Source of the DNA: a virus
Reading direction: 5' to 3' (one strand)
Length of the DNA: 64,000 nucleotides
IMG/VR virus record: IMGVR_UViG_3300019854_000029
Location: 56,360-120,359 of that record
Below, in pieces: positions 46,181 through 47,385 of this stretch. A model generated the notes under the pieces. That model saw only the letters and a program-made list of their open reading frames with translations, did not search any database and was not told the origin of the DNA. The translations under genes and the position numbers were made by a program. Each line of letters begins with the position of its first letter. Position 1 is the stretch's first letter.

Positions 46181-46597
46181 ATGTGCGTACAACAGCTCAT
46201 CAACGCGGGTGAACTAGCTCCATATATCGGACTAAGGCCACGACTCACTAGGCTCTTAGAACTTCTTGCTAAATATGCCGGTGAAAAAACACAACAGCTT
46301 TGCTGTAGCCAAGAAACCCTCGCCGCGCACCTGTCATGCTCTGTTAGGACTATTTCTCGCGACCTTCACACGCTTTCGTCTCTAGGTCTCATCCACGTGC
46401 AGCCCCGGTACTTGGAGGATCGTAAGCACGTTAAGCACCGCACGACTGATGTCATCACGGTTCATATCCCTACCGTCGCTGAGTGGGACGCGGGCGTTCG
46501 CTATGACGGTTCTACTAGGCCAGCAATTAAAAACGCTAACTACTGGCGTGCTGGCGCTCCCGACATCATTGAAGTTCCTATGGCTCCCGAGAAATAA
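46181..46597 (+). CDS. Winged-helix DNA-binding protein (138 aa), paralog of the N-terminal domain of 44570-45655
   Basis: AAGGAAG RBS. ...LSCSVRTISRDLHTLSSLGLIHVQPRYLEDRKHVKHRTTDVITVHIPTVAEWDAGVRYDGSTRPA aligns with the Rep-like protein on the other side of the intergenic region. Confidence 0.6.
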   Translation: MCVQQLINAGELAPYIGLRPRLTRLLELLAKYAGEKTQQLCCSQETLAAHLSCSVRTISRDLHTLSSLGLIHVQPRYLEDRKHVKHRTTDVITVHIPTVAEWDAGVRYDGSTRPAIKNANYWRAGAPDIIEVPMAPEK

Positions 46598-46853
46598 ACA
46601 GACCCCCTCGCAACGCGAAACCTAATCGCACACAAACTAAGGGGCCGTTCGACACGAAACCGAACAGCCCCTGTAAGTATTACCTTTACCTTTCTAGTCG
46701 CCTCTGTAGCTTGTAGCAGATTAGGAAAAACTCTTACAAGTAGCTACACCGCGTTCTCATCGCTCAATGCGTGAACGGGCATCGAGATAAAAAGAACCGC
46801 CCGGCACGAAAACATCTTGAAAATAGCGCGCTAATATGCTTCGCTTCTATATA

Positions 46854-46926
46854 GCGGCTGTAGTTCAGTTGGTAGAGCACCCGGATATGGACCGGGAGGT
46901 CGCGGGTTCGAGTCCCGCCATCCGCG
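46854..46926 (+). tRNA. Atypical tRNA gene; anticodon reads AUG (His codon CAU) in a manual cloverleaf
   Basis: Acceptor GCGGCTG/CATCCGC (C5-U68 mismatch), D stem GTTC/GAGC, anticodon stem CCCGG/CCGGG with loop ATATGGA, variable AGGTC, T arm GCGGG-TTCGAGT-CCCGC, discriminator G, no encoded CCA. Confidence 0.6.
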
Positions 46927-46980
46927 CTGATGAAAGTCTCAAAGCCTTTGCAACGATTACAAGCAAAGACCGCTGTTCGC

Positions 46981-47385
46981 CTACATCTTTTTACCGGCTA
47001 GGGCCTCTAGCATCCGCAGCATTTCTTCTTCAGAGACCTCGGCTTCTTTTGCGATTGCCTTAAACTCCTCCGTGTTACCTGCGGCGTAGTCGAGGAGGAG
47101 CCGCGCACCTTTCGGGGTAATCTGCACCATTTCTTCGCAGCGGATACTCTCGTGGAAGGAATCGGGCAGTTCAATCCTTCCGCGTTTTTCGAGGCTGAGG
47201 AGCGCTTCGATCACATCATGTTCAGTACTGCCAATTACTCGCGCGATATCTTCCGGGTGGTCAAGGATGCGGGTGAACGAGCCAGTTGAGCCTCCGGTTA
47301 GATAGTAGAGGACTCTTTCTTCGACTGGCGAGAGCGGTGACTGTGGGCGGCGGGCGCGGTTTTTACGTGAGGGGCGCACTGACAT
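46981..47385 (-). CDS. Winged-helix (MarR/ArsR-like) transcription regulator (134 aa)
   Basis: LSPVEERVLYYLTGG...FTRILDHPEDIARVIGSTEHDVIEALLSLEKRGRIEL follows a wHTH pattern. It is divergent from 47543-47959. Confidence 0.45.
   Translation of the reverse strand: MSVRPSRKNRARRPQSPLSPVEERVLYYLTGGSTGSFTRILDHPEDIARVIGSTEHDVIEALLSLEKRGRIELPDSFHESIRCEEMVQITPKGARLLLDYAAGNTEEFKAIAKEAEVSEEEMLRMLEALAGKKM

What the first reader, a model, noticed from the sequence alone, without database searches (positions are those of the whole stretch)
46854..46926. Aberrant element-borne tRNA with anticodon AUG
Seen: a 73-nt cloverleaf with a canonical T arm (GCGGG-TTCGAGT-CCCGC) and D loop. It has a C5-U68 mismatch in the acceptor stem, a G-U pair in the D stem and the anticodon loop A-U-AUG-G-A. 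By my fold the anticodon is AUG (it would read the His codon CAU). The His identity elements are missing, since position -1 is A and the discriminator is G. Established: in bacteria A34 is normally confined to tRNA-Arg(ACG), and HisRS relies on G-1/C73. His/Tyr/Asn/Asp tRNAs with G/Q34-U35 are the substrates of colicin E5-type anticodon nucleases. Inference: this is either a decaying tRNA pseudogene or former att-site remnant, or a functional decoy/replacement tRNA whose G34-to-A change escapes an anticodon nuclease. The second option would be an anti-defence or anti-toxin function carried by the element.
Basis: partly seen in the sequence, partly recalled or inferred. Interest (0 to 1): 0.6.

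Follow-up and report, generated by a model that had tools for sequence, protein, structure and literature searches.

The report
Hybrid His/Gly tRNA with AUG anticodon
A widespread plasmid-like element from human-associated (apparently oral) actinobacteria carries a well-conserved, intact tRNA that pairs a histidine-tRNA-like core and a never-used AUG anticodon with the acceptor end of a glycine tRNA, so it is probably not a histidine tRNA and may be a natural dual-identity tRNA.

Summary
Window 46854-46926 (+) is a real 73-nt tRNA (ARAGORN His-AUG; Rfam 60.7 bits, against 62-71 for genuine actinobacterial tRNA-His). It has the C5.U68 mismatch, U11.G24, loop AUAUGGA, A at -1 and G73.

New findings:
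1. **Mosaic body.** The D arm and anticodon arm are tRNA-His-like. The 30 best matches in 301 Actinomycetes genomes are all tRNA-His(GUG).
2. **His identity removed.** It differs from 31 such tRNA-His genes only at positions that are invariant in them: -1, 2:71, 32, 34, 38, 65 and 73.
3. **Gly-type acceptor.** The acceptor stem matches actinobacterial tRNA-Gly(GCC) at 13 of 14 positions. All 20 other copies have U73, which completes the bacterial GlyRS acceptor set (U73, G1-C72, C2-G71, G3-C70). The window's G73 is a singleton.
4. **Widespread but dispensable.** The tRNA occurs in 20 related metagenome loci (18 distinct contigs) and is missing from three diverged relatives.
5. **Under constraint.** It has 1 segregating site in 72, against 26 in 168 just upstream (p = 6.5e-4).
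6. **No dedicated enzymes.** The element encodes no synthetase, Thg1, deaminase, CCA enzyme or recombinase.

A decaying pseudogene or an active att site is unlikely. A histidine-charged replacement tRNA is hard to reconcile with the acceptor end. My best reading (about 0.3) is a dual-identity tRNA, Gly-type acceptor with a CAU-reading A34 anticodon, analogous to tRNAProX. Expression and charging are untested.

The parts
46854..46926 (+). 73-nt tRNA gene, anticodon AUG, no encoded CCA
   Evidence: ARAGORN; Rfam RF00005 60.7 bits; cloverleaf MFE
46853..46853 (+). Position -1 = A. It is G in 31 of 31 actinobacterial tRNA-His genes. It is invariant in all 21 copies while -2 to -5 vary, and could pair with U73 in the other copies.
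46854..46860 (+). 5' acceptor strand (G1 C2 G3 G4 C5 U6 G7). Gly-type C2; C5 faces U68.
46863..46878 (+). D arm with U11.G24. The 19 nt of positions 8-26 are identical to the tRNA-His of genomes G207, G301, G127 and others.
46880..46896 (+). Anticodon arm. The stem is identical to the tRNA-His of L066. The loop differs from the His loop at positions 32, 34 and 38, all changed to A.
46887..46889 (+). Anticodon A34 U35 G36, followed by G37 (G36-G37 is the TrmD-type context, from general knowledge)
46902..46925 (+). T arm plus 3' acceptor strand. Together with U73 of the other copies it is 25/25 identical to chromosomal tRNA-Gly(GCC) of L040 and of L037, L041, L046 and L048.
46926..46926 (+). Discriminator: G in this window, U in all 20 other copies
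46813..46980 (+). Segment present here but absent from the related 123-kb element G001. It holds 41 nt upstream, the tRNA and the 3' spacer.
46686..46853 (+). Conserved non-coding block upstream of the tRNA, used as the neutral comparator. It has a TAATAT hexamer at 46832-46837 but no consensus sigma-70 promoter and no significant copy of the element's reused promoter module.
46181..46597 (+). Upstream neighbour, an HTH_36 winged-helix protein. It is inverted in several relatives.
46981..47385 (-). Convergent downstream neighbour, a small HTH protein. It was used to retrieve related loci.

Best explanation
This is a selected, structurally intact, non-canonical tRNA of mixed identity, not a tRNA-His in function. 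The following is shown. Its D and anticodon arms are of the actinobacterial tRNA-His type. Every nucleotide that is invariant and identity-defining in tRNA-His has been replaced: G-1, U2:A71, C73 and G34, plus U32, U38 and U65. The acceptor stem with U73 is that of bacterial tRNA-Gly. The following is inferred. After RNase P cleavage and CCA addition by host enzymes, the host glycyl-tRNA synthetase charges it through the acceptor determinants U73, G1-C72, C2-G71 and G3-C70, and less efficiently than real tRNA-Gly because C35 and C36 are absent. With an unmodified A34 it pairs with the minor histidine codon CAU. That would make it a dual-identity tRNA (Gly acceptor, His-codon reader) like the tRNAProX family of Streptomyces. 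It would give low-level His-to-Gly substitution, or at least compete at CAU codons, in cells carrying the element.
For: - It is a real tRNA with an intact core.
- The 30 best matches among 301 Actinomycetes genomes are all tRNA-His(GUG).
- It differs from 31 tRNA-His genes only at positions 2, 32, 34, 38, 65, 71, 73 and -1, all invariant in that set.
- Acceptor stem: 13/14 plus U73 identical to the tRNA-Gly(GCC) of the genomes that have the closest tRNA-His. T arm plus 3' strand plus position 73 are 25/25 to the tRNA-Gly of L040.
- Published identity sets (PMC9976931, Table 1): bacterial Gly is U73, G1-C72, C2-G71, G3-C70, C35, C36, and T. thermophilus GlyRS also uses C50-G64, G10 and U16. All items outside the anticodon are present in 20 of 21 copies. 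Bacterial His is G-1, C73, G34, U35, G36, and only U35 and G36 are present.
- Purifying selection: 1/72 against 26/168 segregating sites, Fisher p = 6.5e-4. The anticodon loop, the C5.U68 mismatch and the acceptor end are unchanged in all 21 copies.
- Precedent: tRNAProX species carry A34 and a foreign anticodon, keep the Pro acceptor determinants, and are charged by housekeeping ProRS and mostly aminoacylated in vivo even when both anticodon determinants are lost (PMC10404621).
- In Streptomyces tRNA-Asp(AUC), A34 stays unmodified (97% A). That tRNA also has a purine at position 32 (PMC9262613).
Against: - C35 and C36 are determinants for GlyRS in all systems studied and both are absent, so charging may be very poor.
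- The window's own copy has G73, which removes the U73 determinant.
- The element encodes no dedicated synthetase, unlike most tRNAProX loci.
- There is no evidence of transcription. No consensus promoter was found, and the reused promoter module is not significantly present upstream.
- The tRNA is missing from three related elements, so it is dispensable.
- One copy (L089) has changed at about the flank rate, 4/72 against 9/168.
- The Gly-like features amount to few nucleotides (2, 71, 73, 65, 68) and could be coincidental or the by-product of one recombination event.
- No selective benefit of His-to-Gly substitution for a plasmid is evident.
Confidence: 0.3

Rival explanations
1. It is a working histidine tRNA specialised for CAU, possibly also insensitive to anticodon nucleases that recognise G34-U35. 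RNase P leaves A-1 because A-1 pairs with U73, recreating the 8-bp acceptor helix peculiar to tRNA-His. HisRS accepts it, and unmodified A34 reads CAU by Watson-Crick pairing instead of G:U wobble.
For: The core and the U35, G36, G37 nucleotides are His-type. A at -1 is invariant in 21 copies while -2 to -5 vary, and 20 of 21 copies have U73, so a -1:73 pair is possible. The review notes that G-1 recognition by T. thermophilus HisRS is largely non-specific for the base, that A-1 or C-1 work for A. pernix HisRS, and that viral tRNA-like ends with other N-1:N73 pairs are HisRS substrates. There is a direct precedent for an A34 version of a queuosine-family tRNA in Actinobacteria, with a purine at position 32 (PMC9262613). 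The element also carries tRNA-Lys(UUU), tRNA-Ser(GCU) and RNA-healing genes, which fits the published idea that element tRNAs resist anticodon nucleases through loop changes (PMC10264068).
Against: G-1 and C73 are present in 31 of 31 actinobacterial tRNA-His genes and absent here. A G-1.U73 tRNA-His loses His identity in E. coli. G34 is itself a HisRS determinant. The window copy has G73, which cannot pair with A-1. CAU is the minor His codon on the element (169 CAU against 502 CAC), so demand is weak and an A34 tRNA could not replace tRNA-His at CAC. The element encodes no Thg1 or HisRS.
Confidence: 0.2
2. It is a tRNA-shaped RNA that is not aminoacylated to a useful extent and acts by shape. 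It could be a decoy or sponge for a tRNA-His-directed nuclease, toxin or modification enzyme, or a regulatory uncharged tRNA.
For: It matches no complete identity set, since His lacks the acceptor items and Gly lacks the anticodon items. The fold and elbow are strictly conserved. All three loop changes fall at or beside the anticodon-nuclease recognition region (PMC10264068). Earlier notes report that the element carries Ro60/Y-RNA and RNA-healing genes, an RNA-damage theme (those notes are unchecked).
Against: No cognate nuclease or toxin was identified near the gene. No precedent for a stoichiometric tRNA decoy was found in the papers read. This reading does not explain why the acceptor end was converted precisely to the Gly set and then conserved.
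Confidence: 0.2
3. It is a non-functional relic: a chimeric tRNA created by recombination between a tRNA-His and a tRNA-Gly gene within their shared T arm, for example during an old integration or excision. It was then disabled in the anticodon and is carried along passively.
For: A crossover inside the T-arm stretch shared by tRNA-His and tRNA-Gly would explain positions 65, 68, 71 and 73 in one step, and the C5.U68 mismatch as a His 5' strand facing a Gly 3' strand. Recombination breakpoints cluster at the gene: the deletion in G001 starts 41 nt upstream, L031 diverges 4 nt after the 3' end, the upstream gene is inverted in several relatives, and an IS605-family gene sits next to it in L094. 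It is absent from three relatives. Copy L089 is drifting. No promoter was found.
Against: Variation is significantly lower than in flanking non-coding DNA. C2 is compensated to pair with G71. The Rfam score is close to the range of genuine tRNA-His. The element has no recombinase and no repeat of the tRNA halves. The diverged copy changes positions 15 and 48 together, the tertiary Levitt pair.
Confidence: 0.2

Closest known systems
tRNAProX family (tRNAProA, tRNAProN, tRNAProT) of Streptomyces and Kitasatospora (PMC10404621)
   Same: Actinobacterial tRNAs that annotation names by their anticodon, that lack the determinants of the matching synthetase, and that keep the acceptor determinants of a different amino acid. 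They also have A34. They are charged by the housekeeping synthetase through the acceptor end.
   Different: Here the pairing is a Gly acceptor with a His-codon anticodon, not Pro with Ala, Asn or Thr. U33 is normal here (A33 in tRNAProX), as are the G15:C48 pair and A21. No dedicated synthetase isoform lies nearby. The gene sits on a mobile plasmid-like element. Nothing has been tested experimentally.
Streptomyces tRNA-Asp(AUC) (PMC9262613)
   Same: It is a G34-to-A34 version of a queuosine-family (NAY box) tRNA in Actinobacteria, with a purine at position 32. It has a low covariance score yet is functional, its A34 is not deaminated, and it lies next to remnants of an integrative element.
   Different: That tRNA is reported to decode GAU and presumably inserts Asp. 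Here the cognate (His) acceptor determinants are absent and replaced by those of Gly.
Canonical actinobacterial tRNA-His(GUG)
   Same: The D arm (19/19), the anticodon stem, U33, U35, G36, G37 and the T arm (16/17). Overall 60/73 identity to the closest example used in the region comparison (L057).
   Different: G-1, U2:A71, U32, G34, U38, U65 and C73 are all replaced, and there is no encoded CCA.
Bacterial tRNA-Gly(GCC)
   Same: The acceptor stem (13/14), U73 in 20 of 21 copies, and a T arm identical to that of some Actinomycetota and Chloroflexota tRNA-Gly genes.
   Different: The anticodon arm is only 4/17 identical, and C35 and C36 are absent.
Phage tRNAs with anticodon-loop changes proposed to resist anticodon nucleases (PMC10264068)
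   Same: An element-borne tRNA whose loop differs from host tRNAs at and beside the cleavage region. It travels with tRNA-Lys(UUU) and tRNA-Ser(GCU).
   Different: Those phage tRNAs keep their anticodon and their cognate identity. This one changes the anticodon itself and loses the cognate acceptor determinants.

Membership tests
tRNA (Rfam RF00005) | Cloverleaf with conserved D and T loop nucleotides, scoring above the gathering score | tested here: met
   60.7 bits against a gathering score of 29; ARAGORN; MFE cloverleaf
Bacterial tRNA-His (HisRS substrate) | Encoded G-1 paired with C73 | tested here: not met
   A at -1, and G73 (window) or U73 (20 other copies); 31 of 31 actinobacterial tRNA-His genes have G-1 and C73
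Bacterial tRNA-His (HisRS substrate) | Anticodon G34 U35 G36 | tested here: not met
   A34 is present, U35 and G36 are kept. All 150 listed matches to the same frame in 401 Actinomycetes genomes have G34; 182 further matches were not listed.
Bacterial tRNA-His (HisRS substrate) | Body similarity to tRNA-His | tested here: met
   The 30 best hits in 301 genomes are all tRNA-His; 66 of 73 positions lie within His variation
Bacterial tRNA-Gly (GlyRS substrate) | U73 with G1-C72, C2-G71 and G3-C70 | tested here: met
   The three pairs are present in all 21 copies. U73 is present in 20 of 21 but not in the window copy, which has G73. The identity set is from PMC9976931.
Bacterial tRNA-Gly (GlyRS substrate) | C35 and C36 | tested here: not met
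   U35 and G36
Bacterial tRNA-Gly (GlyRS substrate) | T. thermophilus-type extras: C50-G64, G10, U16 | tested here: met
   All three can be read from the sequence; they are not specific, since tRNA-His shares them
Dual-identity mistranslating tRNAs (tRNAProX type) | Acceptor determinants of one amino acid combined with the anticodon of another, with the cognate determinants for the anticodon's amino acid absent | tested here: met
Dual-identity mistranslating tRNAs (tRNAProX type) | Adjacent dedicated synthetase isoform; A33, A15:A48, G21 | tested here: not met
   No class IIa or HisRS-like gene on the element; U33, G15:C48 and A21 here
Dual-identity mistranslating tRNAs (tRNAProX type) | Demonstrated aminoacylation with the non-cognate amino acid and codon reassignment | not testable with these tools
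   Needs aminoacylation assays and reporter mass spectrometry
A34 wobble-avoiding tRNA (tRNA-Asp-AUC type) | A34 in an NAY box tRNA, with the cognate identity otherwise kept | tested here: not met
   A34 and a purine at 32 are present, but the His acceptor determinants are absent. CAU is only 25% of His codons on the element.
tRNA-gene attachment site (attP or att scar) | Site-specific recombinase on the element and a repeat of the tRNA 3' part | tested here: not met
   No Phage_integrase or Resolvase match; no second copy of either tRNA half. The 3' 25-29 nt are nevertheless identical to some chromosomal tRNA-Gly genes.
Nuclease-resistant element tRNA (PMC10264068) | Loop substitutions relative to host tRNA with decoding and charging kept | tested here: inconclusive
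   Loop changes at positions 32, 34 and 38 are shown. Retention of His charging is doubtful. No nuclease was identified.

The most novel reading that the evidence does not exclude
A mobile element common in human-associated (apparently oral) Actinomycetota carries a natural Gly-accepting tRNA that reads the histidine codon CAU. That would be a second, independent family of dedicated mistranslation tRNAs. It would be the first on a transmissible plasmid-like element, and the first to use the housekeeping GlyRS without anticodon recognition.
Probability: 0.25. Interest if true: 0.85.

Novelty: new variant of a known kind. Interest (0 to 1): 0.6.

Why it matters
Annotation by anticodon calls this gene tRNA-His, but the identity nucleotides say otherwise. 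If the RNA is made and charged, a common plasmid-like element of human-associated bacteria would be altering how a sense codon is read in its host. So far that is known only from the chromosomal tRNAProX genes of Streptomyces. If it is charged with His instead, it would show that an A-1:U73 pair can stand in for the near-universal G-1:C73 mark and would extend the A34 wobble-avoidance idea to histidine. Either way it gives a short, cloneable test object for tRNA identity rules in Actinobacteria. It also shows that element-borne tRNAs should be classified by their body, not only by their anticodon.

Tried and rejected
- **17-nt stem-loop scan.** An exact-match scan of the anticodon stem-loop in viral contigs gave 16 hits, none of them a tRNA. 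They are chance matches to a near-palindrome.
- **First similarity searches.** BLAST against phage genomes suggested tRNA-Pro (82%), and BLAST against E. coli suggested tRNA-Asp. Both reflect shared D and T arms and were superseded by the actinobacterial comparison.
- **Plasmid and genome collections.** No relative was found in the plasmid collection or, through the Rep-like gene, in the species genomes. The host therefore remains unnamed, and host tRNAs could not be compared directly.
- **Other AUG tRNAs.** A scan for His-like AUG tRNAs in viral contigs found none.
- **Codon compensation for CAU.** Rejected as the main driver, because CAU is 25% of His codons.
- **Inosine at position 34.** Considered unlikely or harmful on a His-charged tRNA. 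CAA is 44% of Gln codons, the element has no deaminase, position 35 is U rather than the C35 seen in tRNA-Arg(ACG) (L052; that TadA needs C35 is from general knowledge), and A34 stays unmodified in tRNA-Asp-AUC.
- **Alternative fold.** No fold giving a conventional anticodon was found.
- **Reused promoter module.** It does not score above background upstream of this tRNA.
- **Neighbouring genes.** They are HTH proteins, unknowns and one GmrSD_N protein, with no recognisable tRNA-directed toxin.
- **Literature.** No paper describing a bacterial tRNA-His with an AUG anticodon was found in the library.

Full report
**1. The object**

ARAGORN finds a tRNA at window 46854-46927 with anticodon AUG. 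The Rfam tRNA model matches 46854-46926 end to end at 60.7 bits (E 1.1e-10, gathering score 29). The minimum-free-energy fold is the cloverleaf. All tertiary-core nucleotides are canonical. For scale, genuine chromosomal tRNA-His genes of Actinomycetes score 62.2-71.2 bits and tRNA-Gly scores about 74.

**2. Context**

The window is the second half of a 120,359-bp record with direct terminal repeats. Earlier notes of this scan read it as a conjugative plasmid-like element of uncultured human oral Actinomycetota (unchecked here). It carries three tRNAs: Ser-GCU, this one, and a canonical Lys-UUU. The immediate neighbours are small HTH proteins, and no toxin-like domain lies within about 4 kb. 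Six-frame Pfam searches of the whole element find no HisRS or class IIa synthetase core, Thg1, cytidine/adenosine-deaminase fold, CCA-adding enzyme, tyrosine recombinase or serine recombinase.

**3. What the body is**

Early BLAST hits to phage tRNA-Pro and E. coli tRNA-Asp reflected only generic arms. I searched 301 genomes sampled across the class Actinomycetes. The 30 best matches (85-88% over positions 3-70) are all tRNA-His(GUG) by ARAGORN.

I compared the tRNA with 31 such genes. All 31 have G-1, U2:A71, U32, G34, U38, U65 and C73. The window tRNA differs from the set only at those positions. At the other 66 positions it carries a base that occurs in real tRNA-His. The U11.G24 pair and G37 are native to subgroups of tRNA-His.

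A scan of species genomes for the T arm plus 3' acceptor strand returned chromosomal tRNA-Gly(GCC or CCC) genes of Actinomycetota and Chloroflexota. By region:

| Region | Best match to tRNA-His | Match to tRNA-Gly (L040) |
|---|---|---|
| D arm (positions 8-26) | 19/19 | 17/19 |
| Anticodon arm | 14/17 (differences at 32, 34, 38) | 4/17 |
| T arm + 3' acceptor strand + position 73 | lower | 25/25 |

In the very genomes whose tRNA-His is closest, tRNA-Gly(GCC) has an acceptor stem matching ours at 13 of 14 positions, plus U73. The C5.U68 mismatch is a His-type C5 facing a Gly-type U68.

**4. Identity sets**

The Giege-Eriani compilation (PMC9976931) gives these sets:
- Bacterial Gly: U73, G1-C72, C2-G71, G3-C70, C35, C36. 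T. thermophilus GlyRS also uses C50-G64, G10 and U16.
- Bacterial His: G-1, C73, G34, U35, G36.

The majority form of this tRNA has every Gly item outside the anticodon. Of the His items it has only U35 and G36. It is therefore a mixed-identity molecule, and naming it His from the anticodon is misleading.

**5. Distribution and constraint**

- A metagenome scan with the anticodon loop left free found the same tRNA, with the same loop, on 9 contigs.
- The downstream gene has 55 homologues, mostly 90-98% identical, on contigs up to 136 kb.
- Of 13 further loci fetched through these, 11 carry the tRNA. One of them, L097, is the same contig as L031. One contig has a G15A change (seen as L031 and L097). 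L089 has a more diverged copy with G15A, G43A, G46A and a deletion at 47/48. The 15 and 48 changes together keep a possible Levitt pair.
- Three relatives with diverged alleles of the flanking genes lack the tRNA (G001, L088, L090).
- All 20 non-window copies have U73, and A at -1 is invariant.
- Among comparable copies, tRNA positions 1-72 have 1 segregating site. The 168 bp of upstream non-coding DNA has 26 (Fisher p = 6.5e-4). With L089 included the figures are 4 against 29 (p = 0.014).
- The anticodon loop, the acceptor stem and the mismatch never vary.

This argues for function, or at least for constraint on the RNA.

**6. What it is not**

- **An active att site.** There is no recombinase and no repeated tRNA half.
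- **A response to codon demand.** CAU is 169 of 671 His codons.
- **An inosine tRNA, most likely.** An inosine at 34 would read CAA, which is 44% of Gln codons. The closest precedent keeps A34 unmodified.
- **A common chromosomal type.** All 150 listed tRNAs that fit the same D-arm and T-arm frame in 401 genomes have G34. The other 182 matches were not listed. That sample and the one include a few unpublished genomes (G009, G026, G032, G034, G038, G045, G265, G306, G375). None of the 31 tRNA-His sequences analysed comes from them, and no claim here depends on them.

**7. Mechanism**

Three published cases frame the options:
- tRNAProX (PMC10404621). These are A34 tRNAs with a foreign anticodon that keep the Pro acceptor determinants. 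Housekeeping ProRS charges them and they are mostly aminoacylated in vivo, even tRNAProN, which lacks both anticodon determinants.
- tRNA-Asp(AUC) (PMC9262613). This odd, low-scoring A34 tRNA with a purine at position 32 is functional, and its A34 stays unmodified.
- The proposal that element tRNAs escape anticodon nucleases through loop changes (PMC10264068).

I rank the readings as follows:
1. Gly-accepting CAU reader (dual identity), about 0.3.
2. His-charged CAU reader using an A-1:U73 eighth pair, possibly nuclease-insensitive, about 0.2.
3. Uncharged mimic or decoy, about 0.2.
4. Chimeric relic, about 0.2.

Shown: the fold, the mosaic ancestry, the replaced identity positions, the conservation and the distribution. 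Inferred: transcription, processing, which synthetase (if any) charges it, and what it does on the ribosome. No consensus promoter was found. The element's reused promoter module is not significantly present upstream.

**8. Origin**

One crossover inside the T-arm stretch that tRNA-His and tRNA-Gly share would account for positions 65, 68, 71 and 73 together. A compensatory U2-to-C change would then restore pairing with G71. The locus is recombinogenic: the upstream gene is inverted in some relatives, breakpoints fall at the tRNA ends, and an IS605-family gene lies beside it in one relative. This is an inference. Convergent point changes are not excluded.

**9. Verdict**

The finding is a new variant of a known kind (non-canonical A34, dual-identity tRNAs of Actinobacteria), carried on a mobile element. 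Function is untested.

Other first-stage notes of this scan mention AUG-anticodon tRNA-like RNAs on unrelated genomes. They share no sequence with this one and were not checked.

Noticed in passing
window 46181-46597 and relatives L021, L026, L028, L033: The HTH_36 gene upstream of the tRNA lies in the opposite orientation in several related elements and is only 75-78% identical there, while the block next to it is about 98% identical. This is a local inversion or allele-swap hotspot beside a candidate origin region.
   Followed up: partly
L094:2769-4073: In one relative an IS605-family OrfB/TnpB (Cas12f-like) gene is inserted directly beside the tRNA, in place of the usual upstream genes.
   Followed up: no
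L036:3431-3507 (Nonomuraea pusilla) and L050: A 77-nt chromosomal tRNA-like gene that ARAGORN calls tRNA-Pro(AGG), with the anticodon at an unusual position. It shares the same T arm and 3' acceptor strand as this tRNA and is another A34 oddity in an actinomycete.
   Followed up: no
L035, L038, L039, L042, L045, L047: Six chromosomal loci from diverse phyla share the T arm and a similar 3' acceptor strand, but ARAGORN reports no tRNA or tmRNA there. They may be tRNA-like 3' domains of another RNA.
   Followed up: no
L020, L027 (soil metagenome contigs): tRNA-Trp-like genes with the same anticodon stem and T arm, but with C instead of the universal U at position 33 (loop UCCCAAC).
   Followed up: no
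whole element (G000): Codon usage is split. NAY boxes strongly prefer C (75-83%), while the purine-ending boxes are A-rich (GAA 59%, CAA 44%, AAA 33%). The Lys-UUU tRNA fits this pattern; the AUG tRNA does not.
   Followed up: partly
window 46704-46749: An imperfect inverted repeat built on TGTAGC/GCTACA words lies in the conserved block upstream of the tRNA. It is also kept in the relative that lacks the tRNA, so it looks like an operator for the neighbouring HTH genes, not part of the tRNA unit.
   Followed up: no
other genomes (scan notes e1-5352617, e1-5674878, e1-5674850): First-stage notes report tRNA-like RNAs with an AUG anticodon and an AUGGA loop segment on unrelated genomes. A34 His-type mimics on mobile DNA could therefore be a recurring theme.
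   Followed up: no
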